Source: an uncultured Bacteroidales bacterium (GTDB taxonomy: Bacteria > Bacteroidota > Bacteroidia > Bacteroidales > WCHB1-69). Taken from it: 64,000 bases of DNA. The stretch is taken from assembly GCA_947165685.1 (NCBI GenBank), contig CAMVBK010000003.1:39299-103298 (forward strand), read 5' to 3'. The notes beneath the pieces are model-generated. The model ran no database searches, was not told where the DNA came from, and saw only the letters and a list, made by a program, of their open reading frames with translations. Position 1 is the first letter of the stretch. Each line of letters begins with the position of its first letter. This document shows positions 295 through 38,195 of the stretch, one piece after another. The position numbers were made by a program, and so were the translations under genes.

Positions 295-1047
295 ATGGGA
301 AAAATCGCATTCAGAATCATCTGTGCAGTGCTTTGCATTATCGCAAGCCTTGCCGCAAATGCAACCCCTTACCGCTGTATAGCTTCCAAACTCAACATCC
401 GCGACACTGCCGACAAGTCGGGGAGAGTCATCGGACAGATAGCCCAGAACGAAACTGTTGACATTCTGTCCGCTGACGGCAAATGGGGATCGGTCTTGAT
501 TAATGGCGATACGGGGTACGTGAGTATGGATTATATGGAGCCGTTTGAAACATCCTCCAATCAAGGAGAGAGTGTGGAGAAGCCGTGGACTGATGCACAG
601 CAAGCCATATTTTGGATTTGTGTTGTCATAGCCGTTGCCATCTATGCCTTCGCCGTGGTCAAGGTACGGCAAGGCGAAATGGTGGTCATCCGAGGCTGGC
701 TCGACTTTGCGCTGCTGATGTTTCCCTGGCTTGTGGTATTTCTGCACCTTTATGACGCTTTCTTGGGTGGAGTGATTTTCGGGAAGTATGTGATTATCGC
801 GCTTTATGTCATAGCAGGACTGTGTCTCATTGGCAGTTTGGCTCTTTCGGTCATCGCTAACTGGGGCAGTCCGTTTTACGTCATCTTCTCGTTGATCATG
901 AAATTGGTGGTCATTCCCATTATGGCCTTCGGATTCTTCTATTTGATTTTCAAAATTTGGGAAAACCGCGGATTGAGCCGCAAAGCCGTCATCATCTTCC
1001 TCATCCTCGGCATCCTCATCGGCGGGCTGATGAGCTTCGAGGAGTGA
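295..1047 (+). CDS. SH3b-domain membrane protein
   Basis: ATG ORF of 250 aa with an N-terminal signal-like segment. ASKLNIRDTADKSGRVIGQI..VDILSADGKWGSVLINGDTGYVSMDYM is bacterial SH3-like. The C-terminal half has about 5 hydrophobic helices. Confidence 0.65.
   Translation: MGKIAFRIICAVLCIIASLAANATPYRCIASKLNIRDTADKSGRVIGQIAQNETVDILSADGKWGSVLINGDTGYVSMDYMEPFETSSNQGESVEKPWTDAQQAIFWICVVIAVAIYAFAVVKVRQGEMVVIRGWLDFALLMFPWLVVFLHLYDAFLGGVIFGKYVIIALYVIAGLCLIGSLALSVIANWGSPFYVIFSLIMKLVVIPIMAFGFFYLIFKIWENRGLSRKAVIIFLILGILIGGLMSFEE
1008..1047 (+). repeat. Copy A of the 30-40 bp gene-end repeat (native 3' end of the SH3 gene)
   Basis: cggcatcctcatcggcgggctgatgagcttcgaggagtga; near-identical copies at 1819-1858 and 3192-3221. 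Confidence 0.9.
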
Positions 1048-1141
1048 CTTTATTCGCCGGTGTTTCAGTGTTTTATATTATGCGTATTAGAAAAACAGAC
1101 AAATTTTATTAAATACTTGTTGGAAAAACGGACAAAAAGTG

Positions 1142-1149
1142 TATTTTTG
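1142..1149 (+). promoter_or_regulatory. Bacteroidetes -7 box (TAtTTTTG) flanked by the 19-bp direct repeat tgttggaaaaacggacaaa
   Basis: Matches TAnnTTTG 23 nt upstream of ATG 1172. Repeat copies lie at 1118-1136 and 1151-1169. Confidence 0.45.
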
Positions 1150-1171
1150 CTGTTGGAAAAACGGACAAACT

Positions 1172-1815
1172 ATGCTTGGCAGAAAGATTGACAACTATTT
1201 AGAGAATTACTACGCCACAACAAATAAAGCGTTGCTCGTCACAGGCGCACGACACAACTGAAGTTTTCCCGCTATGAAAACAGTTTCTTATGGCTTAAAG
1301 AAGCAGGTGTCGCATTGCCGGTTTACAACGTGGAAGCCCCCGTTGTTCCATTGAGATTGTCCCAGTCAAGGAACTTGTTCAAGCTGTTTCAAAACGATGT
1401 CGGACTTTTGGCCAGCCAATACGACGGCGGAATACAGATTCAACTGCTGACAGACGAGAAAAGCATCAATTTCGGCGCCGTCTATGAGAATGCCGTGGCC
1501 CAAGAACTTCACGCACACGGGTTCGACCTTTACTACTTCAACAGCAAAAAACAGGGCGAACTGGATTTCGTCATTGAAAAAAACGGGGAGGTAATGCCCA
1601 TAGAAGTCAAATCGGGCAAGGATTATCAACGTCACAACGCTTTGACAAACGTTATGGCCAACGAGGAATATCAGATTCGCAAAGCCATTGTGTTCAGCAA
1701 CACAAATGTCCGTCAATCAGGTAAAATTCTTTACCTTCCCATCTATATGACAGCATTCCTGGTGAGGGAAATCCCCGACAATATCGTTTATACTATTGAT
1801 TTGTCGGGACTTTAA
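1172..1815 (+). pseudogene. DUF4143-type AAA ATPase, internally deleted
   Basis: N-terminus MLGRKIDNYLENYYATTNKALLVTGARHN stops at 1259-1261, just where Walker A (GxxGKT) should follow. A different frame resumes with KFSRYENSFLWLKEAGVALPVYNV..., the DUF4143-like C-terminus (ORF 1315-1815). About 200 aa are missing. Confidence 0.7.
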
Positions 1816-1818
1816 CCC

Positions 1819-1858
1819 CGGCATCCTCATCGGCGGGCTGCTGAGCTTCGAGGAGTAG
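1819..1858 (+). repeat. Copy B of the gene-end repeat
   Basis: cggcatcctcatcggcgggctgctgagcttcgaggagtag. It differs from copy A by a few substitutions and keeps the frame and a stop codon. Confidence 0.9.
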
Positions 1859-1897
1859 CTTTCCACTAACTTGCATGGTTGATTCAGAAAAAAAATG

Positions 1898-1905
1898 TAT
1901 CTTTG
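1898..1905 (+). promoter_or_regulatory. -7 promoter box TAtcTTTG upstream of the AAA ATPase gene
   Basis: Matches TAnnTTTG 48 nt upstream of ATG 1954. The word tctaaagta occurs twice between the box and the ATG. Confidence 0.45.
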
Positions 1906-1953
1906 CCAAATCTAAAGTATAACTTTAATTTTGTCTAAAGTACACATAAGGCT

Positions 1954-3099
1954 ATGTATAACAGAGTGTTAGAAAATGAAGTTTTACGCTTGTCTGAACT
2001 CTTCAAGGTTGTTACCATTACGGGACCGCGGCAATCGGGCAAAACCACATTGTGCAAAAAGACTTTCCCTCACCACGATTATGTCAATCTGGAGGACGAA
2101 ACCGTTGTAGGCGAGATGGAACTCAACAAAAAGGAGTTTCTGGTGAAACACAGGAAAGGCCTGGTGATTGACGAAGTGCAAAAAATGCCCGAGATCCTCT
2201 CCGCTGTACAGGTTGTGGTGGATGAGTATCCAGACGCCGCCTTCGTTCTCACAGGAAGCAACAACCTGCTTTTGATGCAGCGCATCACTCAGTCGCTGGC
2301 TGGTCGTACCGCCGTGCTGACACTTCTTCCTTTTTCCATCGCCGAACTGACAGAAGTGGACAAGTCAGCAGGATTATACAGCATAATGTTGAACGGTTTT
2401 TATCCTGCGGTATGGGCACAGAACATACCGCCACAAGATGTTTACCGCCAATATTTCTCCACATACCTGCAACGTGATGTACGACAGGTGATGAATATTC
2501 GTCATCTTTCTGAATTCAGGAGATTTATCGTGATCTGCGCTTCGAGGATTGGCTCTGAATTCAACGCACAAGGAATCTCTAACGAATTGGGTGTGTCGAT
2601 ACCCACAATCCAGGAGTGGATGAACGTATTGGAGACTTCCTACGTGGCTTTCCGTCTGCCCCCATTTTTTCGCAATATTGGGAAACGGTTGGTCAAGACC
2701 CCTAAAATCTACTTTTACGACGTGGGACTGGTATGCTATCTGTTGGGAATTCACACACCGCAGCAGTTGGAAACCCATCCGTTAAGAGGCTCTATATTTG
2801 AAAATATGGTGGTGTGTGATTTTCTCAAGAACCAGTATAATCATGGTTTGGACAACAATCTGTATTTCTACCGCGACAAAAGCCAGCATGAGGTCGATTT
2901 GGTTGTAGAAGACGGCTTACAACTTAATGCGTATGAAATCAAACTTTCATCAAACATACACCCTGACTTCTATAAGAATCTCAACTATTTCCGCAGTCTG
3001 TTTCCCAACGAAACTGTCACTACGCAAGTGATAAACACGGGCCAAGCAGAAAATAACAGCAGTGAAAACGGACATCGCTTCTATCTGAATGTACCATAA
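1954..3099 (+). CDS. AAA+ ATPase with DUF4143 C-terminal domain (AAA_14/DUF4143 family)
   Basis: 381 aa. Walker A is GPRQSGKTTL and Walker B-like is GLVIDEVQ. The layout is typical of this multi-copy Bacteroidales family. Confidence 0.85.
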   Translation: MYNRVLENEVLRLSELFKVVTITGPRQSGKTTLCKKTFPHHDYVNLEDETVVGEMELNKKEFLVKHRKGLVIDEVQKMPEILSAVQVVVDEYPDAAFVLTGSNNLLLMQRITQSLAGRTAVLTLLPFSIAELTEVDKSAGLYSIMLNGFYPAVWAQNIPPQDVYRQYFSTYLQRDVRQVMNIRHLSEFRRFIVICASRIGSEFNAQGISNELGVSIPTIQEWMNVLETSYVAFRLPPFFRNIGKRLVKTPKIYFYDVGLVCYLLGIHTPQQLETHPLRGSIFENMVVCDFLKNQYNHGLDNNLYFYRDKSQHEVDLVVEDGLQLNAYEIKLSSNIHPDFYKNLNYFRSLFPNETVTTQVINTGQAENNSSENGHRFYLNVP

Positions 3100-3191
3100 G
3101 CACTTCTCCCCAACCTCCCCACCGGCTCCACCATCAACAACTACTAAAATATCCGCGAGGAACAACGGAAAGACATTGAGCCAGACAGCCA

Positions 3192-3221
3192 ATCGGCGGG
3201 CCGATGAGCTTCGAGGAGTGA
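3192..3221 (+). repeat. Copy C of the gene-end repeat (shorter)
   Basis: atcggcgggccgatgagcttcgaggagtga; matches the last 30 bp of copies A and B. Confidence 0.85.
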
Positions 3222-3247: not shown

Positions 3248-3754
3248 CTATCTTTTTTCCGCTATAATGTTCATCTCCAGGCCGTTGATGGTAGAAGTGG
3301 GTGCGCCGCTTTGGCTGCCGGTCCAGGTCTCCCGAAGAATCAGCGACCCGTCGCGGAAGGTTCCGCCACCCGTTGCGGTGACCCGATAGACGAGGGACGG
3401 GGTCTCGTCTTGGTTGAGGCTCGGCAGCCAGCTGGAAGAGAGTACGTTCGTGCTGAAGGTGTGCTCGTCTAACAGCAGGGAGTCGCCGCGCAGCTCGGCG
3501 GTCATCGTGTAGCCGCCGCCGTTCATCTCGTTCATCGTTATCAAATACTTGGACTTCTGAGACTTGTCGCGCAGAATTTGCATCTGGCCGATGCGGTGGA
3601 TGAGTTGGTAGGTCACCTCGCCTTCCGCGTCCCTCAGCTCCACTTCGCCCGAGAGTTTGTAGTTGTAGTCTCCGGCCAGCTTCCGGGTGTCTTTCTGGCA
3701 CGAAAGGAGCATTAAGGCGGCCAGCAGGGTTGTCAGTATGATGTTTTTGTTCAT
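3248..3754 (-). CDS. Lipoprotein of unknown function
   Basis: 168 aa. MNKNIILTTLLAALMLLSCQKD is a lipoprotein signal with a Cys lipobox. No recognisable catalytic motif. Confidence 0.6.
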   Translation of the reverse strand: MNKNIILTTLLAALMLLSCQKDTRKLAGDYNYKLSGEVELRDAEGEVTYQLIHRIGQMQILRDKSQKSKYLITMNEMNGGGYTMTAELRGDSLLLDEHTFSTNVLSSSWLPSLNQDETPSLVYRVTATGGGTFRDGSLILRETWTGSQSGAPTSTINGLEMNIIAEKR

Positions 3755-3911
3755 TTTTTTTAGTTTTGGCTTGTTTTGTGAATCGTATCTTGTTGTAATT
3801 CAGTGCCCAAAATTGCCATTGGGGCATGAAAACAACCAGGGTGCGAAGATACGTTTTTTTTGAAACCGCCGAATAGTTGTCGAAAGGACTGGTGCGGTTC
3901 AAAAAAAATCG

Positions 3912-4622: not shown

Positions 4623-6020
4623 ATGGAACGAGAGATTTTTAACAACCATACTGTTTATTCGCTGTCGGATGTGGCCATGAGCATCCACAAGGTGATCGAA
4701 CGCACGTATAACCGGCCGTATTATATCAAGGCTGAGATCTTGAAGCTGAATTATTACCCTTACAGCGGGCATTGCTATCCGGAGCTCGTGGAACGGGACG
4801 GGAATGCTATCAAGGCGGAGTTGCGCGCGGTGATTTGGTCTTCCAACTTCCAGGACATCAACCGGCGTTTCGTGCAGATTACCGGCGAGCCGCTGAAGGA
4901 GAATATCCGCATCCTTTGTCTGGCCACGGTGCAGTTCAGTCCGAAGCACGGCTTGGCCCTGCATATCGAGGACATCGAGCCGACTTACACCTTGGGCGAC
5001 ATGATGCGGAACCGGCAGGAGGTCATCGACCGGCTCAAGCAGGAGCAGGTGTTCGACCTCAACCGCAACCTCCCGATGCCGCTGCTGCCCAAGCGTGTGG
5101 CCGTCATCTCCGTGGAGACCAGCAAAGGCTACAGCGATTTCATGCAGACGCTGCAGGGCAACGAATACGGCTACCGTTTCCATACGGAGCTGTTCCCGAC
5201 GATCTTGCAAGGCGAGAAGGCCATCACGGGGATTCAGAGCCAGCTGGAGAACATCCGGCGCAGGCTTGACCAGTTCGACGTGGCGGTTCTTGTGCGCGGT
5301 GGCGGCGGCGATGTGGGCATGAGCTGTTACGACGACTACGGGTTGACCCGCAGCGTGGCGACCTTCCCGCTGCCCGTGCTCACCGGCATAGGCCATTCCA
5401 CCAACCTCTCCGTCACCGACATGGTGGCCCACGCGCGGTTCATCACCCCCACGGAGGTGGCTTTCGCCCTGTTGGACGCCTTCCGGAAGTTCGACGAACA
5501 GCTCGGGGATATGGCTCAGCGGATGACGCAGCGCGTGCAGGCGCAGCTTGCGGAGGCGAGGCAGTCGCTGACGCATACGGAAACGCTTTGCCAGTACAAG
5601 TTGCCGAAGGCACTCGACGCGCACCGGAACCGCTTGTCGGAACTCTGCGGCGACTTGGCGCTTCGGTCGAAACAACTGACCATGAACCAGATGTTTCGGC
5701 TCCGTTCGTTGTCCCAGGAGATGGACAAAGGCGTGCGGCTGCGCGGACAACGGGAGCGGCAGTCCCTGGCGCGTCTTGAGGAGGCACTTCCGCGCGAAAG
5801 CCTGGCGATGCTGCGGAAACGCGGGCTGGAGTGCGACCGGGTGGAGGAAAAGCTCCGGCTGCTCAGTCCCGAAAACGTCCTTCGACGCGGCTACAGCATC
5901 ACCCTCAAAGACGGGAAGGCGGTGACTGACGCATCCGTATTGCACCCTGGGGACGCTCTCGTGACAAGGTTTTATGCCGGGGAGGCGATTCTTCGGGTGG
6001 AAGATGGGAAAAAAATGTAA
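4623..6020 (+). CDS. xseA: Exodeoxyribonuclease VII large subunit
   Basis: 465 aa with an N-terminal OB-fold region (YWIKAEI-like YYIKAEILKLN). VISVETSKGYSDF and VLVRGGGG are XseA catalytic-core motifs. Confidence 0.9.
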   Translation: MEREIFNNHTVYSLSDVAMSIHKVIERTYNRPYYIKAEILKLNYYPYSGHCYPELVERDGNAIKAELRAVIWSSNFQDINRRFVQITGEPLKENIRILCLATVQFSPKHGLALHIEDIEPTYTLGDMMRNRQEVIDRLKQEQVFDLNRNLPMPLLPKRVAVISVETSKGYSDFMQTLQGNEYGYRFHTELFPTILQGEKAITGIQSQLENIRRRLDQFDVAVLVRGGGGDVGMSCYDDYGLTRSVATFPLPVLTGIGHSTNLSVTDMVAHARFITPTEVAFALLDAFRKFDEQLGDMAQRMTQRVQAQLAEARQSLTHTETLCQYKLPKALDAHRNRLSELCGDLALRSKQLTMNQMFRLRSLSQEMDKGVRLRGQRERQSLARLEEALPRESLAMLRKRGLECDRVEEKLRLLSPENVLRRGYSITLKDGKAVTDASVLHPGDALVTRFYAGEAILRVEDGKKM

Positions 6021-17379: not shown

Positions 17380-18924
17380 TTATTCCACCACTTTCCAGTC
17401 CTGAATCTTGCGGGTTTCAGAGGAGAAGTTCACTCCGATCTTGTAGAGCTTGCGCGGGTCGTGGGCGAACGGCGCGGCGTATTGCCTCTCTTCGATCTGC
17501 GCCAGCGCCTCTTCGACGGATTTGTCTAACTTGAACTCGAACAGGTAGATGTAGTCGGCGGTCTGCACCACCATGTCCATGCGGCCGTCGGAAGTGTGCC
17601 GCTCGGTCTCCGTGTAGAAACCCAACATTTGGAAGATGAGGCTCACGGCATTGTGGAAGTAGAGCTCCGCGTCTCCGGCGATTTGGTAGTCTTGGTTGGC
17701 GAACAGGGACTCCAGACGTGCCATGAACTTCAAAGGCTCCCCTGCCTCTATCTCTTGCACGAAGTTCATCACAAACAGACCGGTCTTCTCTTTCCTGAGC
17801 GGCACGTAGTATGGGAACAGGAAGAGGTTGAACCCGCGTTCCACCTCTTGGTTCGGGAATCCGAGCTGGTAGGTTCGGAAACGTGCGTTGTAACTCTTGA
17901 TGGTAAGATAGCCGCTTTGGTAGAGCAGCGGTATTGGATTGGTGTCGATAGCGTCCAAACTCCCGAGCAAATCTGCCGTTACATTTTCGCGGGTGAGCTG
18001 CTCCAGGTCGTAATTATTGCGTTTCAGGACCTCCACCAGGAACGTGGGCGTGCCCGACTGGAACCACTGGTCGCCGAACTCCTTGCGTTTTAAGGCAGAC
18101 AACAGACTGAAAGGATTATACATCCCCGCGCTGTTGGGGTGGAAGTGGTAGCCGTCGTATTGTTCTTTCAGTCTCCCGTAGCACTCCTCCTTGGTCAGGC
18201 CGTTGGCCGCCGCCAGTTCCCCGACTTGTGCATCGATGTTGTCGCGGATTTCCTGCTCGGTGATGCCGCAGATTTCGGCATACTGCTCTGACAACGAGAT
18301 GTCTTCCAGGTTGTTGAGGTCGCTGAACACGCTCACTTTCGAGAACTTGGTCACACCGGTGAAGAAGGCGAGACGGATGCACGCATCCATGGTCTTGACC
18401 ACCCCGTAGAAACCTTTCAGAATCTTGCGGTAGTCGTCCTGAAGTTTCTCGTCGCCGATGGCCTGCAACAGCGGCTTGTCGTACTCATCCACCAGAATCA
18501 CCACCTGCCTGCCGGCTTGTTCGCAGGTGCGGCGGATGACGCCTTTGAATCGTTCGGAAAGAGTGTCTTCCGCCGGTTGTTTTCCGTAGGTTTCTTCAAA
18601 ACGTCGCAGATGCCCGTCAAGGATAGAGACCAGGGCTTCCTCGCTTCTGTAGTCGGCGGCGTTGAGGTCTATATGAAACACGGGATACGGGTTCCACTCG
18701 GTCTCTAATTTGCTGATGGCCAGTCCGTCGAACAATTCCTTTCGGCCTTGGAAGTAGGCCTCTAACGTGGTGATCAGCAGACTCTTGCCGAACCTGCGGG
18801 GACGGCTCAGAAAGAAGTATTTGCCGGAATTGGCCAAGTCATACACCAACTTCGTTTTGTCAATGTACAGAAAACCTTCTTTGATGATATTCGCGAATGT
18901 CTGTATGCCGATGGGGTATTTCAT
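17380..18924 (-). CDS. AAA-ATPase-like / PD-(D/E)XK nuclease family protein (DUF1703-type), copy 1
   Basis: MKYPIGIQTF...YIDKT...RPRRFGKSL (N-terminal ATPase-like domain). The C-terminal GRMDMVVQT..YIYLFEFK is a PD-(D/E)XK-like motif. Paralog at 28209-29753. Confidence 0.8.
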   Translation of the reverse strand: MKYPIGIQTFANIIKEGFLYIDKTKLVYDLANSGKYFFLSRPRRFGKSLLITTLEAYFQGRKELFDGLAISKLETEWNPYPVFHIDLNAADYRSEEALVSILDGHLRRFEETYGKQPAEDTLSERFKGVIRRTCEQAGRQVVILVDEYDKPLLQAIGDEKLQDDYRKILKGFYGVVKTMDACIRLAFFTGVTKFSKVSVFSDLNNLEDISLSEQYAEICGITEQEIRDNIDAQVGELAAANGLTKEECYGRLKEQYDGYHFHPNSAGMYNPFSLLSALKRKEFGDQWFQSGTPTFLVEVLKRNNYDLEQLTRENVTADLLGSLDAIDTNPIPLLYQSGYLTIKSYNARFRTYQLGFPNQEVERGFNLFLFPYYVPLRKEKTGLFVMNFVQEIEAGEPLKFMARLESLFANQDYQIAGDAELYFHNAVSLIFQMLGFYTETERHTSDGRMDMVVQTADYIYLFEFKLDKSVEEALAQIEERQYAAPFAHDPRKLYKIGVNFSSETRKIQDWKVVE

Positions 18925-20723: not shown

Positions 20724-22511
20724 TTGGCTAACAAGTCATTGGGAATCAAATGGATAAATGCGGGCAGCAACTATTTCAACGATTATTCGCAGGAGGCCGT
20801 TCCCCTTTACAACGGGAACATTTCCGCCCTTTCCGAAAGTATCTATAACTTATGGAACAGAGGGATTCTAAAACTTTTCCGTTACGACAAGTTGAACAGG
20901 ATCAAAAGGATGCGAACGGCCGCACATCATTTCGAGGGGTCTGGATGGGAGACACCCTCCGACAACTTTGCCACGGATTACACCTACGACTGGAACGGAA
21001 ATTTGCTATCTTTGCGGCGCAAAAACCAATACGGCGAGGAGATGCACGATATCCGATATACGTACCCGAATGGCAACAATCGCCTGGGAAGCATAGCTGC
21101 CACCGGTATTTCATCCAGTGTCTATCAGTACGATGCGTTGGGCAACCTGGTGCGCGACAATGCCGAGGGTTTGACCGTGGGCTGGAACGCCTTGGGAAAA
21201 GTGGATACCATCCGCAGGAACGGTAACCTCCTGTCCGCATTCCGCTACAGTCCCACGGGCCAGCGGCAGGTGAAGACCGACTCCTCGGGCACGGCCTTCT
21301 ACATCCACGACGCCACGGGCAACGTGATGTGCATTTACCGGCAGGATGGCGACACCCTGAGAGCCACGGAGCGGTATCTATATGGCAGCAAGCGTTTAGG
21401 CATGTTGGAGCAACAGGTGTGGATTGCCGCGGGCGGCGTGGCACGATTGCAGGATGCCAGCACCATAGGGGCCCGTGTTTACGAGTTTACCGACCATTTG
21501 GGCAATGTGACCTACACGGCACAAGACCGGAAATACCTTGTGCCGGACAGTTATGGCCAACTTCAATATCTCCCTTCCACGGTCACCTACACCGACTACT
21601 ACCCCTTCGGCTACCCCATGCCAGGCCGAAGTTCCTACATGGGGGGTTATCGGTACTTCTTCAATGGGCAGGAGTCTGATAATGAGGTGTTTGGGGAAGT
21701 GATGAGTTTGACCGCTGAATTCTGGCAGTACGATACGAGGTTGGGCCGGAGGTGGAATGTGGACCCCGTGTTCAAGGAGTACGAGAGTCCGTATGCGTGC
21801 TTCGCGGGGAATCCGGTGCGGTTTGCGGATCCGAGAGGAAAGGATGGACGCGTTACTTATACTGAGACTGAAAATGGAGGAGACATTGTTGTTGAAACAA
21901 AATTCTTCGTTTATGGCAAAGGTGCAGAGATTGCTGTAGAAAACGCGAACAAACAGTTTGCTAAGTTAAACACATCCACTTCTGTTGTGATTGATGGAAA
22001 GACATACAATATCAGGCTGAATATCACATGGGAGGTTCGTCAAGATCTTGCAGACATGGACATTGAGAATATGGATTATGCCGATCTTCAATCAATAGAA
22101 GGGTATCAGGAAGGGGACAATTTCCTAAAAGTAGGGGTTCCCGTAGGAGGAGGAAGAACTGGTTTCCTCGGTGAAGGATACAAGGGCGGAAATACAGGTT
22201 ATTCTTTGGTAACATCCGCAGATGCGGTACTCCATGAATCTTTCCACAATCTGGGATTTAAAGATACGTATTATCAAAAAGGATTCGAACGCGACGTAAT
22301 GTCAAGTGGAGCACTTGCGGGACAAGAAATCAATCAAATTCATTACGAGGCTTTGATTCCTATTATTTTGCAAAACTATAATTACATCAAAGAACGTGTC
22401 ATTGCCAATCAGACGTTGGGGACTAACTGGCCTGTCCATAAATTGGGACTGGACATTAACAATCCGAAACAGTTTCATATTTTGCTACGAAGTATCTATC
22501 TGGATTATTAA
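20724..22511 (+). CDS. RHS repeat-associated core protein, 5'-truncated, with an HExxH C-terminal toxin domain
   Basis: YD repeats YTYDWNGNLLSL and YQYDALGNLV, plus DHLGN and YYPFG. The core end is GGYRYFFNGQESDNE..RLGRRWNVDPV..FADPRGKDG, followed by an unrelated tail containing HESFH. An in-frame stop sits at 20628 and the first start is TTG, so the usual long N-terminal shell is absent. Confidence 0.8.
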   Translation: MANKSLGIKWINAGSNYFNDYSQEAVPLYNGNISALSESIYNLWNRGILKLFRYDKLNRIKRMRTAAHHFEGSGWETPSDNFATDYTYDWNGNLLSLRRKNQYGEEMHDIRYTYPNGNNRLGSIAATGISSSVYQYDALGNLVRDNAEGLTVGWNALGKVDTIRRNGNLLSAFRYSPTGQRQVKTDSSGTAFYIHDATGNVMCIYRQDGDTLRATERYLYGSKRLGMLEQQVWIAAGGVARLQDASTIGARVYEFTDHLGNVTYTAQDRKYLVPDSYGQLQYLPSTVTYTDYYPFGYPMPGRSSYMGGYRYFFNGQESDNEVFGEVMSLTAEFWQYDTRLGRRWNVDPVFKEYESPYACFAGNPVRFADPRGKDGRVTYTETENGGDIVVETKFFVYGKGAEIAVENANKQFAKLNTSTSVVIDGKTYNIRLNITWEVRQDLADMDIENMDYADLQSIEGYQEGDNFLKVGVPVGGGRTGFLGEGYKGGNTGYSLVTSADAVLHESFHNLGFKDTYYQKGFERDVMSSGALAGQEINQIHYEALIPIILQNYNYIKERVIANQTLGTNWPVHKLGLDINNPKQFHILLRSIYLDY

Positions 22512-22515
22512 AACC

Positions 22516-23130
22516 ATGAGACTGACTACGTTAATTTTATATTTGCTGTTACCCATATTCTGTATTGGGCAAAGCAGTGCTGAACAAAAGTTCTGTTTCT
22601 GCTTTTTTGACAAATTTGGAGCAGAAGTAACCCCTTCTGAAATGCTGGTGCTGGACAACACAGGGGGTGTTTTTAATTTAGACAGTTCCAAATGTTTTCG
22701 TCATAAGGCCGACACGTCTTATTCTTTTATTTTGCAGGTGATAGACAGAAATTATTACTTTTCCCAAAAACAGTATGATGCCAATGAGATGTCGGGCTGT
22801 GACACGGTTCGATTGGAAAACATGGAGTGTATTAACAAACTCGCCTTCAGCTCTCACCGATTGAAACTGAACAACCGTCAGAAAAAGCAGATCGCCTCCT
22901 TCTTCTCAAACAGTAGGCGCGGGTTCCATCGCATTGCCATTCTTGTAGGGAAACCAACACGTGCGAAAACAGAAGCGAAACAGTGCGTCAACGATATCAT
23001 CAGATTATACGAAAAGGATTTGAAAGCAAGAAACATTCAGCAAACGCCCGAAGTGATGGTGCATTTCTACAATTTGCCTGAGGGGGGAAATACTTTTACG
23101 TTTGAGATTGAAGCGTATGATTACAAATAA
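22516..23130 (+). CDS. Putative immunity protein 1 (exported)
   Basis: Starts 5 nt after the toxin stop. Signal peptide MRLTTLILYLLLPIFCIGQSS. AT-rich with no known motif; assigned by position. Confidence 0.5.
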   Translation: MRLTTLILYLLLPIFCIGQSSAEQKFCFCFFDKFGAEVTPSEMLVLDNTGGVFNLDSSKCFRHKADTSYSFILQVIDRNYYFSQKQYDANEMSGCDTVRLENMECINKLAFSSHRLKLNNRQKKQIASFFSNSRRGFHRIAILVGKPTRAKTEAKQCVNDIIRLYEKDLKARNIQQTPEVMVHFYNLPEGGNTFTFEIEAYDYK

Positions 23131-23201
23131 CTGTTGTTCCGCGTTGTCCCCGTTGTCGTCAAAAAACACATCTTAATTGTTTCACCAACCCGAAAAAAAC
23201 T

Positions 23202-23209
23202 TATCTTCG
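23202..23209 (+). promoter_or_regulatory. -7-like box TAtcTTCG 4 nt upstream of the orphan-1 ATG
   Basis: cttatcttcgcgccATG. The same arrangement occurs at 25152-25159, with a degenerate version at 26585-26594. Confidence 0.4.
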
Positions 23210-23213
23210 CGCC

Positions 23214-24155
23214 ATGAACCACACCTCCACATACCCGCCAAAATTCCCCCGTCCCGCCATGGGGGGTTATCGGTACTTCTTCAACGGGCAGGAGGCTGAT
23301 AATGAGGTGCTTGGAGAAGGGATGAGTTTGGCCGCTGAATTTTGGCAGTACGACACGAGATTGGGCAGGAGGTGGAATGTGGACCCTGTGTTCAAGGAGT
23401 ACGAGAGTCCGTATGCGTGCTTCGCGGGGAATCCGGTATGGTTTGCGGACAGATTTGGAGCGGATACCGCATTCGACGATAACATAGCTAGAAATAATTT
23501 CTTAGAAAGTTATCAGTGGATTATTGGCCAAATATCATCAATCGAGAATAAAACTGCTGCTATTCGAGCGCAAGCTGCCCAGAAAGGATGGAATGACAAT
23601 AAAACAAATAGTAAAATCGACAAATTATTTGGTAAATACGACTACAACACGCTTCTTGAGATGAGGCAAGGATTTGAGGAAATCATGAGAGATCCTAACA
23701 TAATCGTCACATATTCAACAAACGAAGATATGATAGAAGACTTTACCGGGGGGCACACAAAACATGTTGACGACCTACATGTGAATGTATATTTCCGACG
23801 AAACAAGTTAGGGACCCTCATTCATGAATCCCGTCACGCATGGGGAGTGATAAGAAAAGAGTGGTCATTTAGAGGCGGATATGATACCACAGACGAACTA
23901 GTTGCTTTCACTTGGCAAAGTGTTAAAGATCCGACCGCAGTGAATTTATTTAAAGAAACCGTTTCAAAAATATACTATCGGAATGATTTGAGCCAAATGA
24001 TTGAAATGAGCTTGAGCAGTGCCATCAACTATTATTACATTGAAGTCTTGCATAAGAACATGACCAGAAGTGCTATACCTATACCAGAACCCTTCACTCA
24101 AATAAAAAACATTCAAACCGCAGGTTCTTATATCAGAAAACTCCTGAAAAGATAA
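23214..24155 (+). CDS. Orphan RHS C-terminal module 1 (core end plus an HExxH-containing tail)
   Basis: MNHTSTYPPKFPRPAMGGYRYFFNGQEADNE..RLGRRWNVDPVFKEYESPYACFAGNPVWFADRFG, then a unique tail containing LIHESRHAWG. Confidence 0.75.
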   Translation: MNHTSTYPPKFPRPAMGGYRYFFNGQEADNEVLGEGMSLAAEFWQYDTRLGRRWNVDPVFKEYESPYACFAGNPVWFADRFGADTAFDDNIARNNFLESYQWIIGQISSIENKTAAIRAQAAQKGWNDNKTNSKIDKLFGKYDYNTLLEMRQGFEEIMRDPNIIVTYSTNEDMIEDFTGGHTKHVDDLHVNVYFRRNKLGTLIHESRHAWGVIRKEWSFRGGYDTTDELVAFTWQSVKDPTAVNLFKETVSKIYYRNDLSQMIEMSLSSAINYYYIEVLHKNMTRSAIPIPEPFTQIKNIQTAGSYIRKLLKR

Positions 24156-24203
24156 CTTTAGTTTAGAAGAAGTATTCAATGTCCTCAAATAGTCACATAT
24201 AAA

Positions 24204-25151
24204 ATGAAACGTGCTCTTTATAATCTTGTAACATTCCTCTGTTTTCTAAACTTGCCATCGCTGCATGCACAAAACCAACCACCCGTTTGGATAGAAATTG
24301 TTCAGGGTGGCTTCCCCAATTACATAATCTTTTCACGTTATGGGGTGATTGTGTCAACGTTTGATTATAATCTCAATGACCGCTTGCACCTTTTTAATAC
24401 CTCATACTACCCGACAAGGACATTAGGTAACAGTCACATAGATAGTCTGCTTGAATATGTCGTTTTTCAGTATCAAAACTCAGAGCACAAAAAATTTATC
24501 ACTCATGATGTGTTGATATTGGATGGCTCTTATACAGAAATCAGAATCCATAACGGTCATTCAATTAACACATTAAGGACAACCGAAGAGTGCTACAGCA
24601 AAGAGATGGATATTATTGAACGAATGGCAAATCAAATCCTTAGCGAATTATCGGACTCTAACAGAATAGATCTCGGTGGGTATTGCGATCATTGTGAAAT
24701 CGTCAAAGCATCGCCTTATTGTCATTTCAAAACAATGGAGAATCCGACATTCTATGGATTTTTCTTCCAAATGATTGTTGATGACGAAGTTCTTCTTACT
24801 CTTCATGATGACCTTGGCATATTATATCAAGATACCGATGTGATTTTCATACCACGATTCCCGAACCGCGTCAAAAGGCATGAGTTCATGAATTGGAGAA
24901 AGCTGCTTTATCAAACGATAAGAACGGATATCCTCCAAAGTCAATTTGACACAACACCTTCATATACAGGTGGCTATTTGTTGGTTCGACTTGATGACAA
25001 GTGGGCATATATGAATCACGTGGACAGAAAAGTTATTAATAAATGGCTGAACAAAATGGAATGCGTCGTGCCACGCGCTTATCGCAAATCCTTCAAACGC
25101 AAAAAAACAATGATACTCCAATCGTGGAATAAAAATGTATCTAATATTTAG
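24204..25151 (+). CDS. Putative immunity protein 2 (exported)
   Basis: Signal peptide MKRALYNLVTFLCFLNLPSLHAQ. Assigned by its position after the orphan toxin. AT-rich. Confidence 0.5.
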   Translation: MKRALYNLVTFLCFLNLPSLHAQNQPPVWIEIVQGGFPNYIIFSRYGVIVSTFDYNLNDRLHLFNTSYYPTRTLGNSHIDSLLEYVVFQYQNSEHKKFITHDVLILDGSYTEIRIHNGHSINTLRTTEECYSKEMDIIERMANQILSELSDSNRIDLGGYCDHCEIVKASPYCHFKTMENPTFYGFFFQMIVDDEVLLTLHDDLGILYQDTDVIFIPRFPNRVKRHEFMNWRKLLYQTIRTDILQSQFDTTPSYTGGYLLVRLDDKWAYMNHVDRKVINKWLNKMECVVPRAYRKSFKRKKTMILQSWNKNVSNI

Positions 25152-25159
25152 TATCTTCG
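25152..25159 (+). promoter_or_regulatory. -7-like box TAtcTTCG 4 nt upstream of the orphan-2 ATG
   Basis: agtatcttcgcgccATG. Confidence 0.4.
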
Positions 25160-25163
25160 CGCC

Positions 25164-26219
25164 ATGATCCGCACCGCCACATACCCGCCCCAGCCCCCTC
25201 GTTACTATAAGGGGGGGTATCGGTACTTTTTCAACGGGCAAGAGGGAGATAACGAGGTGCTTGGGGAGGGGACTCTGCACGCCTTCGAGTACCGCATGCA
25301 CGACACGCGCACCGGGCGGTTCTGGAGCGTTGATCCCTTGGCGGGGAAGTTCCCGTGGTGGTCCACTTATCAGTTCGCAGGACTTATGCCAACATGGAGC
25401 AGAGAGCTGGAAGGGTTGGAACCGCTTAATAAAGGGAGTTATAATGGTCAAGGTGCTTATGCTCCTGTATTGGACGAAAACAATAATCCCGTTGATGGTA
25501 CAGAAGACCAAACTTGGATATGGAACAACGACACTTGGAATCAATCTGAATATGCCATTGTATATGAAATAATGAACAGTGTTTTCAAAAACGCCAAACC
25601 CTCGTTATTGAGAGGTGCCGAAGTCGCAGTAAATTTGTATGGCTCCACGTTTGGCATAAATAATCGGGAGGCTATTTGTCATTTCTTTGCGCAAGCAGGA
25701 CATGAAAGTGCTGGATTCACTAAAGTCGAAGAGAGTTTCAATTACACTGTCAAAGGTCTGTTGGGAACCTTCGGTAAATATTTCTACGTAGGAGCTCCTG
25801 TGGAAGGCAAATTTAATGCTGAAGAATATGGCCGAACAAACGATCATCCGGCAAACTATGAAGGTATTGCCAATATTGTTTATGACAATCGAATGGGTAA
25901 TGGGAAAAATGAAGGCTATTTGTATCGAGGTCGAGGATTAATACAATTAACAGGAAAGTCAAATTATCAAGCTTTTACGAACTACTTGAATAAAACGTTC
26001 ACGAACAATACAGTTGATTTTGTCCAATCACCTCAACTGGTGGCAACAGATCAATATGCGGTATTAAGTGCCATGTGGTTTTTCAAAAAGAACGTTATTG
26101 ACAAGATTGACATTGATAATGCAAGTGTAAAAGATGTGACGAAAATTGTTAATGGAGGGTATAATGGGTTGAAAGACCGCGAGAGTAAATATGAACAACT
26201 AAAAAACACTCTAAAGTGA
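25164..26219 (+). CDS. Orphan RHS C-terminal module 2 with a GH19/COG3179-like peptidoglycan hydrolase (chitinase/lysozyme) tail
   Basis: The core end is diverged: GGYRYFFNGQEGDNE..TRTGRFWSVDPLAGKFPWWSTYQFAG. The tail has ICHFFAQAGHESAGF, YRGRGLIQLTGKSNYQAF and LSAMWFF, which are GH19-type motifs. Confidence 0.75.
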   Translation: MIRTATYPPQPPRYYKGGYRYFFNGQEGDNEVLGEGTLHAFEYRMHDTRTGRFWSVDPLAGKFPWWSTYQFAGLMPTWSRELEGLEPLNKGSYNGQGAYAPVLDENNNPVDGTEDQTWIWNNDTWNQSEYAIVYEIMNSVFKNAKPSLLRGAEVAVNLYGSTFGINNREAICHFFAQAGHESAGFTKVEESFNYTVKGLLGTFGKYFYVGAPVEGKFNAEEYGRTNDHPANYEGIANIVYDNRMGNGKNEGYLYRGRGLIQLTGKSNYQAFTNYLNKTFTNNTVDFVQSPQLVATDQYAVLSAMWFFKKNVIDKIDIDNASVKDVTKIVNGGYNGLKDRESKYEQLKNTLK

Positions 26220-26581
26220 AACAATACATCTTCATTTTATTTTGGACATTAATTGGGGTATTCGTTTCTTCTGCTCAAGTCAGGATAGATTGCAATACAA
26301 AAGATTTGTATGATAATATTCAAGGCGTGTGGAGGCAAACTGATGGTTCTGGAAATGCTCTGGCAATAGTAGATAGCAATGCGTATTTTTTGTATGGCAC
26401 AGATCAAAGTGTTTGGCAAGATGATGTTGGAAACTTATTCAGCATAGTGAAAAATGACAAAGAAGAATCATTTTTTATATGGTGGTTAGATATGTTAGTT
26501 CAAGAATTTGTTTTGGAAAAAGATACATTGCTGCTGTTGGATTTTAAAGGACGTTCTGAAACGTATATTCGAATTAAGTAA
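26216..26581 (+). CDS. Putative immunity protein 3 (exported)
   Basis: GTG start overlaps the toxin stop (gtga). Signal peptide MKQYIFILFWTLIGVFVSSAQ. Confidence 0.5.
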   Translation: MKQYIFILFWTLIGVFVSSAQVRIDCNTKDLYDNIQGVWRQTDGSGNALAIVDSNAYFLYGTDQSVWQDDVGNLFSIVKNDKEESFFIWWLDMLVQEFVLEKDTLLLLDFKGRSETYIRIK

Positions 26582-26594
26582 AAACTATCGCGCC

Positions 26595-27517
26595 ATGAAT
26601 TTCACGACCACATACCCGCCAAAATCCTCCCGTTCCGCTATGGGGGTATATTGGTATTTCTTCAACGGGCAGGAGGCTGATAATGAGGTGCTTGGAGAGG
26701 GGCGAGTTTGACCGCGGAATTCTGGCAGTACGACACGAGGCTGGGCCGGAGGTGGAATGTGGACCCTGTTTTCAAGGAGTATGAAAGTCCGTATGCGTGC
26801 TTTGCAGGGAACCCGGTGTGGTTTGCGGATCCGAATGGAGACAGTAGTGTTGTTGATGCTAAAGGGTACATGATTTATTATGATGAGAACGACAAGGATT
26901 TGCGAGTTTTCATTAATGAGAACGGTAAGTTAAGACAAATTGGAGAATTAGGAAAGACAATTGAAGCAGACACTTGGTTCGCTAATTTGCTAAAAGAAAA
27001 TGCTGCCGCCGCGAAAGATTCTTGGAATCCTGTTAGCTTCAGGAACAAAGTGAAGCAGTATGGTGAGTGGGATTATAAATATGCTAGTAAAGGCAATAAA
27101 GAAAATGAGAACATCCGTTATCACTTGTTAGGCATTGCCTTTTACAGAAAAGACAAAAACAACAAGGACGCTGATTTGCCAGAGACCTATTTCTCGTTTA
27201 ATGGAATGATAGGAAGAGCCGAAGATTTGAACAACTTTCACTTTGGTGTTGTTGGCAAAGCATTCGGATGGTTCCCTGAGACCTTTATGCTAAAACAGGC
27301 TGGAAAAGCCGAAATGGATAAATGGGCGGAAGAAGGGCGGACTGTTCCTGCTGAATGGACCCCAAGAATAGAAGTTATCAAATTTCGAGGCGGAATGATA
27401 CCAACCTCTTATACCACAACAAAGTTACTGCCTCCTTACGGGGATAACCCTATTGACCATGAGTGGATAAAACGCGGATTTGAATATTATAATAATATGA
27501 CACTATCAAATGACTGA
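26595..27517 (+). pseudogene. Orphan RHS C-terminal module 3, frameshifted
   Basis: MNFTTTYPPKSSRSAMGVYWYFFNGQEADNEVLGEG stops at 26709-26711. The core continues in another frame (AEFWQYDTRLGRRWNVDPV...FADPNGDS). Compared with orphan 1, 1 nt is missing near 26697-26702. Confidence 0.7.
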
Positions 27518-27520
27518 AAG

Positions 27521-28132
27521 ATGAACCGTATCCCACGTATAATCGTCCTATCAATTCTGATTGTCATAGGTGTCGTAGGTGTAGCTTATGTGGCAATTAT
27601 GGCGTATATACACTATGATGTGTTCGGAAAAAGTCCGTCGTATGAAGGGACCAGACAAAATTTCATCAATAATGAGTTATATTTTCAGAAGACAGAAGAT
27701 TGTTTTCAGAAAATTTTCCAATGCTGTTCTTCCGTCGATTCAACAATGGAACTCATTAGATTCACTATTGACAATTCTAGCAACAATTTTGTGTTTTTTC
27801 AATATTTTTCGATAGAAGACAGAAGGCAACTTCTATTCCCGATTAGGGATTCTGGTCTTGAAATAAGCCAAAATCAAAAAGAAACATTGCAGTCCAACGG
27901 CATCACTCCTCAAATGATAGAAACACTTTATTCTAATCTAAAAAAAACAAATTGTCGTTCGGTGGAGAAAGATAAACTAAATTCTAACAACACGATATTT
28001 ATGACTTTTAAAATACTCGATTATTGTTCTATTCAATATATGTTTTATCCTCAACCTTTTGAAGAAGATTCCATTAAGAGTCATATCTCCAACACGCCAC
28101 TCGGTCGGCGAGTAAGGATCTATGTCGAATAA
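27521..28132 (+). CDS. Putative immunity protein 4 (N-terminal membrane anchor)
   Basis: Starts 3 nt after the toxin stop. TM helix IIVLSILIVIGVVGVAYVAIMAY. Confidence 0.45.
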   Translation: MNRIPRIIVLSILIVIGVVGVAYVAIMAYIHYDVFGKSPSYEGTRQNFINNELYFQKTEDCFQKIFQCCSSVDSTMELIRFTIDNSSNNFVFFQYFSIEDRRQLLFPIRDSGLEISQNQKETLQSNGITPQMIETLYSNLKKTNCRSVEKDKLNSNNTIFMTFKILDYCSIQYMFYPQPFEEDSIKSHISNTPLGRRVRIYVE

Positions 28133-28181
28133 TTCCACAAATGTTGTCCAAGTTGTCCAAGTTGTCTTTCTAAATAAATTG

Positions 28182-28189
28182 TATCTTTG
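28182..28189 (+). promoter_or_regulatory. -7 promoter box TAtcTTTG for ATPase copy 2
   Basis: Lies 19 nt upstream of ATG 28209. Confidence 0.45.
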
Positions 28190-28208
28190 CGGCAAAAATT
28201 TTGTCATT

Positions 28209-35211: not shown

Positions 35212-35216
35212 TTCCT

Positions 35217-35669: not shown

Positions 35670-35670
35670 G

Positions 35671-36384: not shown

Positions 36385-36402
36385 TTTTCTACAATTCCGT
36401 CG

Positions 36403-36410
36403 CAAAAGTA
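36403..36410 (-). promoter_or_regulatory. -7 promoter box TActTTTG (minus strand) for the orphan toxin
   Basis: The plus strand reads caaaagta, 18 nt upstream of ATG 36384. Confidence 0.4.
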
Positions 36411-36525
36411 CGATTTATTTGGTTTGATGTGCGAAATTTGTAGCGTAATATATGAACACTTCTGATGGCTTCTGATGATTCGGTTGATTCTTCTGGCAAT
36501 TATGGCATTGACCACTCGTTTTGCA

Positions 36526-37197: not shown

Positions 37198-37208
37198 ACG
37201 ACAATTGC

Positions 37209-38188: not shown

Positions 38189-38195
38189 GACTATG

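What the first reader, a model, noticed from the sequence alone, without database searches (positions are those of the whole stretch)
1008..3221. Two DUF4143 AAA ATPase cassettes, each bounded by a copy of the last 30-40 bp of the upstream gene (serial site-specific insertion?)
The 3' end of the SH3-membrane gene (cggcatcctcatcggcgggctgatgagcttcgaggagTGA, 1008-1047) reappears at 1819-1858 (..gggctgCtgagcttcgaggagTAG) and, shortened, at 3192-3221 (atcggcgggcCgatgagcttcgaggagTGA). Exactly one AAA/DUF4143 ATPase gene with its own TAnnTTTG promoter lies between consecutive copies. The first (1172-1815) has an internal deletion that removes the Walker A region; the second (1954-3099) is intact. The copies have diverged by point substitutions, so these are old, successive events. 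Target-end duplication is what integrative elements leave behind, yet no recombinase is present and the cargo is a single gene. This very abundant, functionally obscure Bacteroidales ATPase family may move as minimal cassettes into a preferred att-like site.
Basis: seen in the sequence. Interest (0 to 1): 0.6.

Follow-up and report, generated by a model that had tools for sequence, protein, structure and literature searches.

The report
Recombinase-less gene-cassette array behind SH3 gene
Two single-gene ATPase cassettes sit behind a membrane-protein gene, each ending in a copy of that gene's last 30-45 bases; related rumen bacteria carry 0 to 6 such cassettes in shuffled orders, so this is an integron-like array of candidate phage-defence genes with no recombinase gene in the contexts examined.

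Summary
The last 30 nt of the SH3-membrane gene (1018-1047) recur at 1829-1858 and 3192-3221, with 0 matches expected by chance. One DUF4143 ATPase gene lies in each interval: the first is a deletion remnant, the second is intact.

Sixty related loci from rumen Bacteroidales show a polymorphic cassette array.
- SH3 is followed directly by its neighbour gene in some strains (0 cassettes).
- Other strains carry 1, 2, 3 or 6 cassettes.
- The same cassettes occur in different orders, behind different head genes (SH3, an ion-channel gene, an LRR gene) and before different right flanks.
- Every junction examined in the core-bounded arrays carries the core, always in direct orientation.

Each cassette consists of its own promoter, operator-like repeats, usually one gene, and a relic of variable length. 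The relic is cassette-borne, not a local target duplication.

Cargo is not only DUF4143. It also includes ATPase_2 (PDC-S27) and RhuM (PDC-S05) genes and larger islands. DUF4143 corresponds to PADLOC candidate PDC-S01.

No recombinase gene was found in the contexts examined.

My best reading is serial insertion and shuffling of circularisable cassettes by recombination at the 30-bp core. I infer, but have not shown, a recombinase acting in trans. RecA-driven recombination is a serious rival. I rate it a new variant of known accretion and integron-like systems.

The parts
295..1047 (+). SH3_3-domain membrane protein gene. It heads the array in this genome; its last 30 nt are the recombination core.
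   Evidence: Pfam SH3_3 E 6.7e-10. 34 orthologues share the conserved C-terminus ..ILIGGLMSFEE. Against L005 the 3' third of the gene is 90-98% identical, while the 5' two thirds are 39-85% identical.
1018..1047 (+). Core copy 1 (ATCGGCGGGCTGATGAGCTTCGAGGAGTGA), the functional end of the SH3 ORF. An imperfect dyad, CTCATC-N8-GATGAG, spans 1015-1034.
1048..1828 (+). Cassette 1 (cas1). Contents: left end; three 19-nt operator-like direct repeats at 1085-1169; promoter motif at 1142-1149; DUF4143 ATPase remnant (N-terminus 1172-1255, C-terminus 1255-1815); 13-nt SH3-type relic at 1816-1828.
   Evidence: The same deletion allele occurs in L019, L032 and L056-58. The intact 448-aa version sits at the same array position in L060.
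1829..1858 (+). Core copy 2 (C at position 13, stop TAG).
   Evidence: The TAG variant goes with the cas2 left-end allele 'ctttccactaac' in the window and in L056-59.
1859..3191 (+). Cassette 2 (cas2). Contents: promoter motif at 1898-1905; two operator-like repeats (aatctaaagta / tgtctaaagta, roughly 1910-1945); intact AAA_14 + DUF4143 gene at 1954-3099 (PADLOC PDC-S01); ~89-nt relic of an Ion_trans gene 3' end at 3103-3191.
   Evidence: The protein is 99-100% identical in many rumen contigs. The arm aligns to the end of the intact 277-aa Ion_trans ORF in L014.
3192..3221 (+). Core copy 3 (C at position 11), followed by the chromosomal right flank.
   Evidence: The same junction with this flank occurs in L012, L022-L031.
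3248..3754 (-). Convergent lipoprotein-like gene, the right flank of the array. AlgH-like, xseA and the triose-phosphate isomerase (TIM) gene follow.

Best explanation
The locus is a tandem array of small, circularisable gene cassettes. It was built and reshuffled by recombination at a ~30-bp core, which is the 3' end of the SH3 gene.

A cassette in linear form runs as follows: the right part of the core with the stop codon; a cassette-specific promoter with 2-3 operator-like repeats; usually one gene; then a relic of the end of a former head gene, running up to the core. The relic is either 1-34 nt of SH3 or 83-97 nt of an Ion_trans gene.

Insertion at any resident core regenerates the head gene's end on the left and leaves a second core on the right. 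Repeating this stacks cassettes. Recombination between cores deletes, moves or reorders them.

Shown: the anatomy, the presence/absence polymorphism, the shuffled orders, the cassette-borne relic, and the absence of a recombinase gene in the contexts examined.

Inferred: the reaction is conservative site-specific recombination by a recombinase encoded elsewhere in the genome. Spread between strains is helped by homologous recombination that uses the SH3 gene as an anchor.

The cargo consists mainly of single-gene phage-defence candidates.
For: 1. Occupancy states.
- 0 cassettes: L013 and L015 have SH3 then a 70-nt spacer then the PLD gene.
- 1 cassette: L002, L003.
- 2 cassettes: the window and L001.
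- 3 cassettes: L005.
- 6 cassettes: L060.

2. The same cassettes appear in different orders and flanks.
- LRR5|cas2|flank (L027-31)
- LRR5|cas4|cas2|flank (L022-26)
- LRR5|c|cas2|flank (L012)
- LRR5|cas1del|cas2|c'|cas4 (L019)
- LRR5|cas1del|cas2|PLD, next to gcvP (L056-58)
- SH3|cas1del|cas2|flank (window)

3. cas1 and cas4 keep their SH3-type relics (13 and ~27 nt upstream of the core) even when they are inserted behind an Ion_trans-type arm. The relic therefore belongs to the cassette. In those cases the partners share only the 30-nt core.

4. L021 has a 55-nt SH3 relic at the end of an island, with no SH3 gene within 12 kb upstream.

5. The stop codon and nearby bases go with the right-hand cassette. 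TAG precedes the e-type cassette in 5 contexts spanning 2 left-neighbour classes. CGA precedes cas1 in L056 and L060.

6. All cores in a locus are in direct orientation.

7. The core sits in an imperfect dyad, CTCATC-N8-GATGAG. In L014 a relic is broken inside the core after position 14.

8. No integrase or transposase Pfam domain is listed in any context returned with precomputed Pfam hits.

9. Contigs start or end at the core (L054, L055, L059, L003). That is what assemblers do at a branching repeat.
Against: - No recombinase has been identified.
- The dyad is short (6 bp arms). The region does not fold better than shuffled sequence (z between -0.8 and +1.1).
- Positions 6 and 13 of the core show all four combinations upstream of cas2. 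The Ion_trans-type arms are mosaics. Exchange therefore also occurs at several points, as homologous recombination or gene conversion would give.
- With 40 unique junctions, the tendency of the core to resemble cores that share the right neighbour (1.61 vs 2.08 differences) is not significant (permutation P = 0.21).
- The core is not clearly more conserved than the arm (pi 0.121 vs a median of 0.137).
- Relic lengths vary, so each cassette type needed its own illegitimate 'birth' event.
- The near-coincident left joints of the arms (-83 to -97) in at least 4 cassette types are unexplained.
Confidence: 0.45

Rival explanations
1. Homologous and illegitimate recombination only. Each cassette type arose once, by an illegitimate joint that captured 30-127 nt of the end of the gene upstream. 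The resulting direct repeats then let RecA excise circles, or integrate transferred linear DNA, by Campbell-type or double crossover. The SH3 gene serves as the long left anchor. No dedicated recombinase exists.
For: - The arms are mosaic, and neighbouring arms are partly homogenised.
- All four combinations of positions 6 and 13 occur inside the core.
- SH3 identity to L005 jumps from 39-85% to 90-98% in the 3' third, which points to a crossover inside the gene.
- In L004 the 105-nt repeat around a DUF4143 gene is built from two different PLD alleles: the left copy is L010-like, the right copy is L016-like. It therefore joins two haplotypes and is not a simple duplication.
- L027 has a 47-nt internal PLD fragment left behind after the DnaB-like gene.
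- No recombinase gene was found in the contexts examined.
Against: - cas1 and cas4 were inserted where only a 30-nt core of ~93-97% identity was shared. That is at the lower limit for RecA-dependent exchange.
- All junctions end at the same point, the stop codon plus or minus a few nt, in more than 15 cassette types.
- The clustering of 'birth' joints is unexplained: -1 to -34 for SH3, -83 to -97 for Ion_trans.
Confidence: 0.33
2. Decayed remains of larger integrative elements. Integrase-bearing islands would have inserted one after another into the 3' end of SH3, each carrying a replacement gene end. They then lost everything but a cargo gene.
For: - Duplicated target-gene ends of element-specific length are typical of integrase-mediated islands (established knowledge).
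- Larger, multi-gene units with the same relic exist in L009, L011 and L021.
Against: - No integrase remnant appears in any of the arrays read.
- The same minimal cassettes (cas2, cas1del, c, cas4) keep the same tight boundaries in many different neighbourhoods. In cas2 the stop codon is followed by the arm after 3 nt. That is not what independent decay gives.
- The larger islands encode surface proteins and a kinase-like protein, not mobility genes. This was judged by eye from the sequences and was not scanned against Pfam.
Confidence: 0.1
3. Self-mobilising cassettes. The AAA ATPase / PD-(D/E)XK-like protein encoded by most cassettes would itself cut and insert the cassette. The upstream repeats would serve as its binding sites, and insertion would generate long target duplications.
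For: - Most of the cassette types seen encode DUF4143/AAA_14 or ATPase_2 proteins.
- Each has its own set of 2-3 direct repeats at its left end.
- A DUF4143 cassette sits in the 5' end of the PLD gene between 105-nt repeats; L010 shows the empty site.
- An identical DUF4143 protein (P0082) occurs in at least 4 different neighbourhoods as a discrete promoter-gene-terminator unit.
Against: - The relic is cassette-borne, not a copy of the local target.
- The two PLD repeat copies are different alleles.
- The cas1 remnant, which lacks Walker A, still changed neighbourhoods. RhuM, LRR_5 and ion-channel cassettes use the same junctions.
- No terminal inverted repeats were seen.
- Homologues in other genera have no long flanking repeats.
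Confidence: 0.07

Closest known systems
SCC / pseudo-SCC composite islands at the 3' end of rlmH (orfX) in staphylococci; likewise ICE-CIME accretion at the 3' end of fda in Streptococcus thermophilus (from my own knowledge)
   Same: - Elements are stacked in tandem behind one conserved gene.
- Every junction carries a direct repeat that copies the last bases of that gene.
- Many elements lack a recombinase and depend on one supplied in trans.
   Different: - Units here are 0.8-1.7 kb and mostly single genes, not 3-60 kb islands.
- No Ccr-like or integrase-bearing member has been seen.
- The repeat left of the core varies in length from 1 to 97 nt.
- The repeat also works away from the original gene, behind LRR_5 or Ion_trans genes.
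Integron gene cassettes, especially chromosomal integrons that store phage-defence cassettes (from my own knowledge)
   Same: - An array of mostly one-gene cassettes, mostly in the same orientation.
- Each cassette ends in a recombination site that is split on integration.
- Orders are shuffled between strains.
- The cargo is defence-like.
   Different: - No IntI gene next to the array.
- The repeat is not a folded attC: z-scores are near 0 and there is no covariation.
- Cassettes carry their own promoters.
- The site derives from the coding end of a host gene.
Xer-dependent elements (IMEX) and pdif modules of Acinetobacter plasmids (from my own knowledge)
   Same: - Small modules without a recombinase, bounded by ~28-30-bp sites.
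- Moved by host recombinases encoded elsewhere.
   Different: - The core has only a 6-N8-6 dyad, not the 11-6-11 layout of dif.
- It lies inside a coding sequence.
- All copies are direct, whereas pdif modules have alternating orientation.
PADLOC phage-defence candidates PDC-S01, PDC-S27 and PDC-S05, genes found 'embedded' inside RM, BREX and DISARM loci (bioRxiv 10.1101/2024.01.29.577857; PMC13356809)
   Same: The cassette genes match these models: E 1.5e-93 for window ATPase2, 5.9e-201 for intact ATPase1, 2e-199 for c, 1.3e-107 for RhuM. PDC-S01 is the most frequent single locus called in rumen genomes (PMC13356809).
   Different: Those papers describe the genes and where they lie. In the passages I read they do not describe a cassette structure, a repeated junction or a way of moving.

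Membership tests
Integron | Tyrosine recombinase IntI encoded next to the insertion site | tested here: not met
   No integrase Pfam domain is listed in the contexts returned with precomputed Pfam hits.
Integron | attC sites: imperfect palindromes that fold as single strands | tested here: not met
   DNA folding z-scores lie between -0.8 and +1.1 on both strands. The RNAalifold covariation term is -0.35, and 1 of 16 pairs has compensatory changes.
Integron | Array of cassettes, each ending in a recombination site, with variable content between strains | tested here: met
   0 to 6 cassettes, shuffled orders.
Site-specific accretion at a gene 3' end (SCC-like, CIME-like) | A copy of the target gene's 3' end at every element junction, in direct orientation | tested here: met
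Site-specific accretion at a gene 3' end (SCC-like, CIME-like) | A cognate recombinase (in some array member or elsewhere) that acts on the repeat | not testable with these tools
   None was found within 10-20 kb. Whole genomes of the carriers could not be screened.
Xer/dif-dependent modules | 28-bp site with two 11-bp arms around a 6-bp centre, resembling the host dif | tested here: inconclusive
   Only a 6-N8-6 dyad is present. The host dif sequence is unknown.
Transposon with target-site duplication | A duplication of fixed length copied from the local target, terminal inverted repeats, and a transposase | tested here: not met
   Repeat length ranges from 30 to 127 nt. The relic differs from the local target in L019, L022 and L056. 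No terminal inverted repeats or transposase were seen.
AAA_14 / DUF4143 ATPases (PADLOC PDC-S01) | Match to the Pfam AAA_14 and DUF4143 profiles and to the PDC-S01 models | tested here: met
   1954-3099 matches AAA_14 at 98 bits and DUF4143 at 175.6 bits, and PDC-S01 at E 1.5e-93. 1315-1815 matches only the DUF4143 C-terminal part.

The most novel reading that the evidence does not exclude
Rumen Bacteroidales possess a previously undescribed cassette system that is functionally like an integron. Single-gene defence candidates (PDC-S01, S27, S05), each with its own promoter, are captured, stacked and exchanged at a 30-bp site derived from a host gene end. The catalyst would be either an unrecognised trans-acting recombinase or the ATPase-nuclease proteins themselves. 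That would explain how the most abundant 'defence candidate' genes of the rumen come to be embedded between other genes.
Probability: 0.3. Interest if true: 0.85.

Novelty: new variant of a known kind. Interest (0 to 1): 0.65.

Why it matters
DUF4143/AAA_14 (PDC-S01) genes are the most frequently called single 'defence' locus in rumen genomes (PMC13356809). They were proposed as defence candidates because they lie embedded inside other defence systems (bioRxiv 10.1101/2024.01.29.577857). Nothing I found says how they get there.

This locus gives a concrete and testable anatomy:
- a minimal unit of promoter, gene and split copy of a host gene end;
- a defined 30-bp junction;
- natural empty and filled sites, and a six-cassette array.

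If a dedicated recombinase exists, it would be a second, independent invention of an integron-like gene-capture platform, in a phylum where integrons are not prominent. If the process is RecA-driven, it shows how short portable repeats turn a chromosomal site into a defence-gene exchange point.

Tried and rejected
1. Target-site duplication made at insertion. Sister-like arms around c (L012), c' (L019) and RhuM (L005), and the 105-nt PLD repeat, at first suggested this. I rejected it for two reasons. cas1 and cas4 carry SH3-type relics behind Ion_trans-type sites. The two PLD copies are different alleles.

2. attC-like folded site or known RNA. No significant folding, no covariation and no Rfam match.

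3. A phage or provirus attachment site. The core gave 0 matches in viral contigs.

4. The arm as a diverged longer copy of the SH3 end. I compared them by eye only and saw no convincing similarity. The arm is instead the 3' end of an Ion_trans gene.

5. The core being statistically tied to the right-hand cassette, or under stronger constraint than the arm. A first count looked positive (1.26 vs 2.34 differences, which wrongly included L021). With 40 junctions and a permutation test it is not significant (P = 0.21), and core diversity lies within the range of the arm windows.

6. Generality across the DUF4143 family. Two sets of ten contexts of more distant homologues showed no long flanking repeats. 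There was only a 23-nt terminator-like hairpin repeated in L044 and a 14-nt motif in L037-40.

7. Literature. Searches for DUF4143, for cassette arrays in Bacteroidales and for PDC-S01 found no description of this structure. One search failed on syntax.

8. Structure prediction and fold search were not used. The proteins' families were clear from sequence, and structure would not have told the mechanisms apart.
Full report
**Observation**

The window begins with the end of an ATP-grasp gene. The SH3_3-domain membrane protein gene follows at 295-1047.

- Its last 47 nt (1005-1051) recur at 1816-1862 with 91% identity. Its last 30 nt recur at 3192-3221 with 29 of 30 identical.
- A degenerate 28-nt pattern with up to three mismatches hits only these three sites in 64 kb. 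No hits are expected by chance.
- Between copies 1 and 2 lies a DUF4143 remnant. It aligns to residues 1-28 and 263-448 of an intact 448-aa homologue, and 704 nt including Walker A are missing.
- Between copies 2 and 3 lies an intact AAA_14 + DUF4143 gene at 1954-3099.
- Both genes have a Bacteroidetes-type TAnnTTTG motif. Both have short direct repeats just upstream of the start codon: three 19-nt repeats spaced 33 nt apart at 1085-1169, and two repeats at roughly 1910-1945.
- G+C falls from about 60% in the flank to 40-47% in the cassettes.

**Where it comes from**

The SH3 protein has 34 relatives in a narrow clade. The genomes that hold it are rumen Bacteroidales MAGs. The C-terminus ..ILIGGLMSFEE is conserved in the protein family, so copy 1 is the original sequence.

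**The locus in relatives**

I read 60 loci in total. They came from a genome scan with the SH3 protein, a metagenome scan with the core motif and look-ups of cas2 homologues.

Arrays headed by SH3:
- L013 and L015: SH3 is followed after 70 nt by a PLD-family gene. This is the zero-cassette state.
- L002 and L003: one ATPase_2 gene lies between SH3 and PLD.
- L005: SH3, then an 88%-identical cas2, then a RhuM gene on the other strand, then a third ATPase, with a core at every junction.

Arrays headed by an LRR_5 gene:
- LRR5|cas2|flank (L027-31)
- LRR5|cas4|cas2|flank (L022-26)
- LRR5|c|cas2|flank (L012)
- LRR5|cas1del|cas2|c'|cas4 (L019)
- LRR5|cas1del|cas2|PLD, next to gcvP (L056-58)
- L060: six cassettes in a row, namely intact ATPase1, cas2, c', cas4, an ATPase_2 gene, and a DUF4143 gene before PLD

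In L014 the head gene is an intact Ion_trans channel gene whose last codons read into the core.

All cores within a locus point the same way. The deletion allele of cas1 found in the window is the same one as in L019, L032 and L056-58. The cas1del-cas2 block has therefore changed both its left and its right neighbour since the deletion arose.

**Anatomy of a cassette**

To the right of each core, after the stop codon, the sequence is cassette-specific. To the left of each core lies a relic whose length is characteristic of the cassette that it ends.

- For SH3-type relics the length is about 1, 2, 7, 13, 24, 27 or 33-34 nt of SH3 sequence.
- For Ion_trans-type relics (the 'arm') it is 83-97 nt. 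Window 3103-3191 is an arm of this kind.

The decisive point concerns cas1 and cas4. They keep their SH3-type relics when they sit behind an Ion_trans-type site (L019, L022, L056, L060). In L021 a 55-nt SH3 relic ends an island with no SH3 gene within 12 kb upstream. The relic therefore belongs to the cassette and is not copied from the local target at insertion.

The stop codon and adjacent bases go with the cassette to the right:
- TAG precedes the e-type ATPase_2 cassette in five contexts, which span two left-neighbour classes.
- CGA precedes cas1 in L056 and L060.
- TAG or TGA goes with the two cas2 left-end alleles.

A cassette thus behaves as a unit whose two ends together make one copy of the head gene's end. 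That is what a circular intermediate recombining at the core would give.

**Mechanism**

I could not find a recombinase.
- No integrase, resolvase or transposase domain is listed among the called genes of the contexts that came with precomputed Pfam hits.
This is a weak test.

In favour of a site-specific reaction:
- Insertions occurred where only the 30-nt core was shared.
- The right boundary is constant across more than 15 cassette types.
- All cores are in direct orientation.
- An imperfect dyad, CTCATC-N8-GATGAG, is centred on the core.
- One relic (L014) is broken inside the core.

In favour of homologous recombination:
- The arms are mosaics of a few variant blocks, and neighbouring arms share blocks.
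- All four combinations of core positions 6 and 13 occur upstream of cas2.
- The SH3 gene of L005 is 39-85% identical to the window gene in its 5' two thirds but 90-98% identical in its 3' third.

Two quantitative tests that might have favoured a dedicated site were negative:
- Linkage of core variants to the right-hand rather than the left-hand neighbour gave 1.61 vs 2.08 differences, P = 0.21.
- Diversity of the core against the arm gave 0.121 against a median of 0.137.

I therefore rank a recombinase acting in trans first (0.45) and RecA-driven exchange second (0.33). In support of the first, my own knowledge is that Bacteroides recombinases such as Mpi act on sites scattered around the genome, so a missing neighbouring recombinase gene is weak evidence against it.

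**A related event at another gene**

In L004 a 1,490-bp DUF4143 cassette sits between two copies of a 105-nt segment. The segment runs from 5 nt upstream of the PLD start codon to about codon 33. L010 shows the uninterrupted arrangement, with the ATPase_2 stop followed after 12 nt by the PLD start.

The left copy matches the L010 allele. The right copy, and the rest of the PLD gene, match the L016 allele. This repeat therefore joins two haplotypes. L054 and L055 show the DUF4143-PLD adjacency without the upstream relic. L027 has a 47-nt internal PLD fragment after the DnaB-like gene.

Gene-end relics are thus a general by-product of recombination in this island and are not confined to SH3.

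**Cargo**

By Pfam and PADLOC the cassette genes are:
- DUF4143/AAA_14 (PDC-S01)
- ATPase_2 (PDC-S27)
- RhuM (PDC-S05)
- LRR_5
- an ion channel
- several genes of unknown family

Larger units with the same relic carry surface proteins. The surrounding region holds GmrSD, WYL, Fic, Mrr_cat, TerB and AbiEii genes, which makes it a defence island.

PDC-S01 is the most frequent single locus called in 6,530 rumen genomes (PMC13356809). The PDC families were defined as genes embedded within RM, BREX and DISARM loci (bioRxiv 10.1101/2024.01.29.577857).

**Generality**

An identical cas2-family protein (P0082) occurs in at least four neighbourhoods as a discrete promoter-gene-terminator unit. Neither those contexts nor the P0114 contexts have long flanking repeats. 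The split-gene-end structure is so far a property of this clade's array and not of the whole protein family.

**Unexplained**

- The left joints of the Ion_trans-type arms fall within about 14 nt of each other (-83 to -97) in at least four unrelated cassettes.
- How each cassette first acquired its relic is not known.

**Verdict**

The details change in four ways:
1. The repeat is cassette-borne.
2. The junction is used by several gene families.
3. The third copy is part of a longer, composite relic.
4. The mechanism is open between a recombinase acting in trans and homologous recombination.

Noticed in passing
window 1085-1169 and roughly 1910-1945; L004 10110-10205; L012 and L016 cassette c left end: Every ATPase cassette has its own set of 2-3 short direct repeats between the promoter motif and the start codon. 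Example: 3 x TGTTGGAAAAACGGACAAA spaced 33 nt apart. They look like operators for autoregulation by the encoded protein.
   Followed up: partly
L004 9981-10085 and 11576-11680; empty site in L010 (reverse strand, oriented coordinates 2611-2624): A DUF4143 cassette is inserted in the 5' end of a PLD-family gene between 105-nt direct repeats. The two repeat copies derive from different PLD alleles.
   Followed up: yes
L027 499-545 and 2888-2934: A 47-nt internal fragment of the PLD gene's 3' region recurs (85% identity) downstream of a DnaB_C-like gene. It is another gene-fragment relic in the same island.
   Followed up: partly
window 295-1047 compared with L005 7983-8744: DNA identity of the SH3 gene rises from 39-85% in the 5' two thirds to 90-98% in the 3' third. 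This is a recombination breakpoint inside the gene.
   Followed up: partly
window 17380-18924 (-) and 28122-29753 (+): Two long ORFs share the motif MKYPIGIQTFA near the N-terminus. They are probably another abundant Bacteroidales AAA-ATPase/nuclease family. I judged this by eye and did not scan them.
   Followed up: no
window 20910-27500 and 34747-38525: Clusters of ORFs with RHS/YD-repeat-like sequences (e.g. YDYDAAGNR) are followed by small low-GC3 ORFs. They look like polymorphic toxin tips with immunity genes. Not scanned.
   Followed up: no
window 57324-58265 and 58900-59838: Two adjacent ORFs of 312-313 aa have identical first 40 residues (MPRGKSTCKVLKEVRRRVAEANNIPLQERECTHTGDCAGT). This is a tandem gene duplication.
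   Followed up: no
L044, about 2240, 3763-3785 and 5160-5182: In an unrelated AT-rich contig, two tandem DUF4143 genes are each followed by nearly the same terminator-like hairpin (aaaacCGCCtcacaaGGGCGgtt), and the same hairpin also precedes the first gene. This may be a faint parallel to the repeat-bounded cassettes.
   Followed up: partly
L047, about 3560-3890: A ~330-nt insertion is flanked by a 9-nt direct repeat (atgattaaa), compared with L045. It looks like a small non-autonomous transposable element.
   Followed up: no
L054 and L055 1390-1700: This haplotype holds heavily deleted remnants of an e-type ATPase_2 cassette and of a DUF4143 cassette, fused upstream of PLD. It shows that cassettes decay in place by internal deletion, as cas1 did in the window.
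   Followed up: partly
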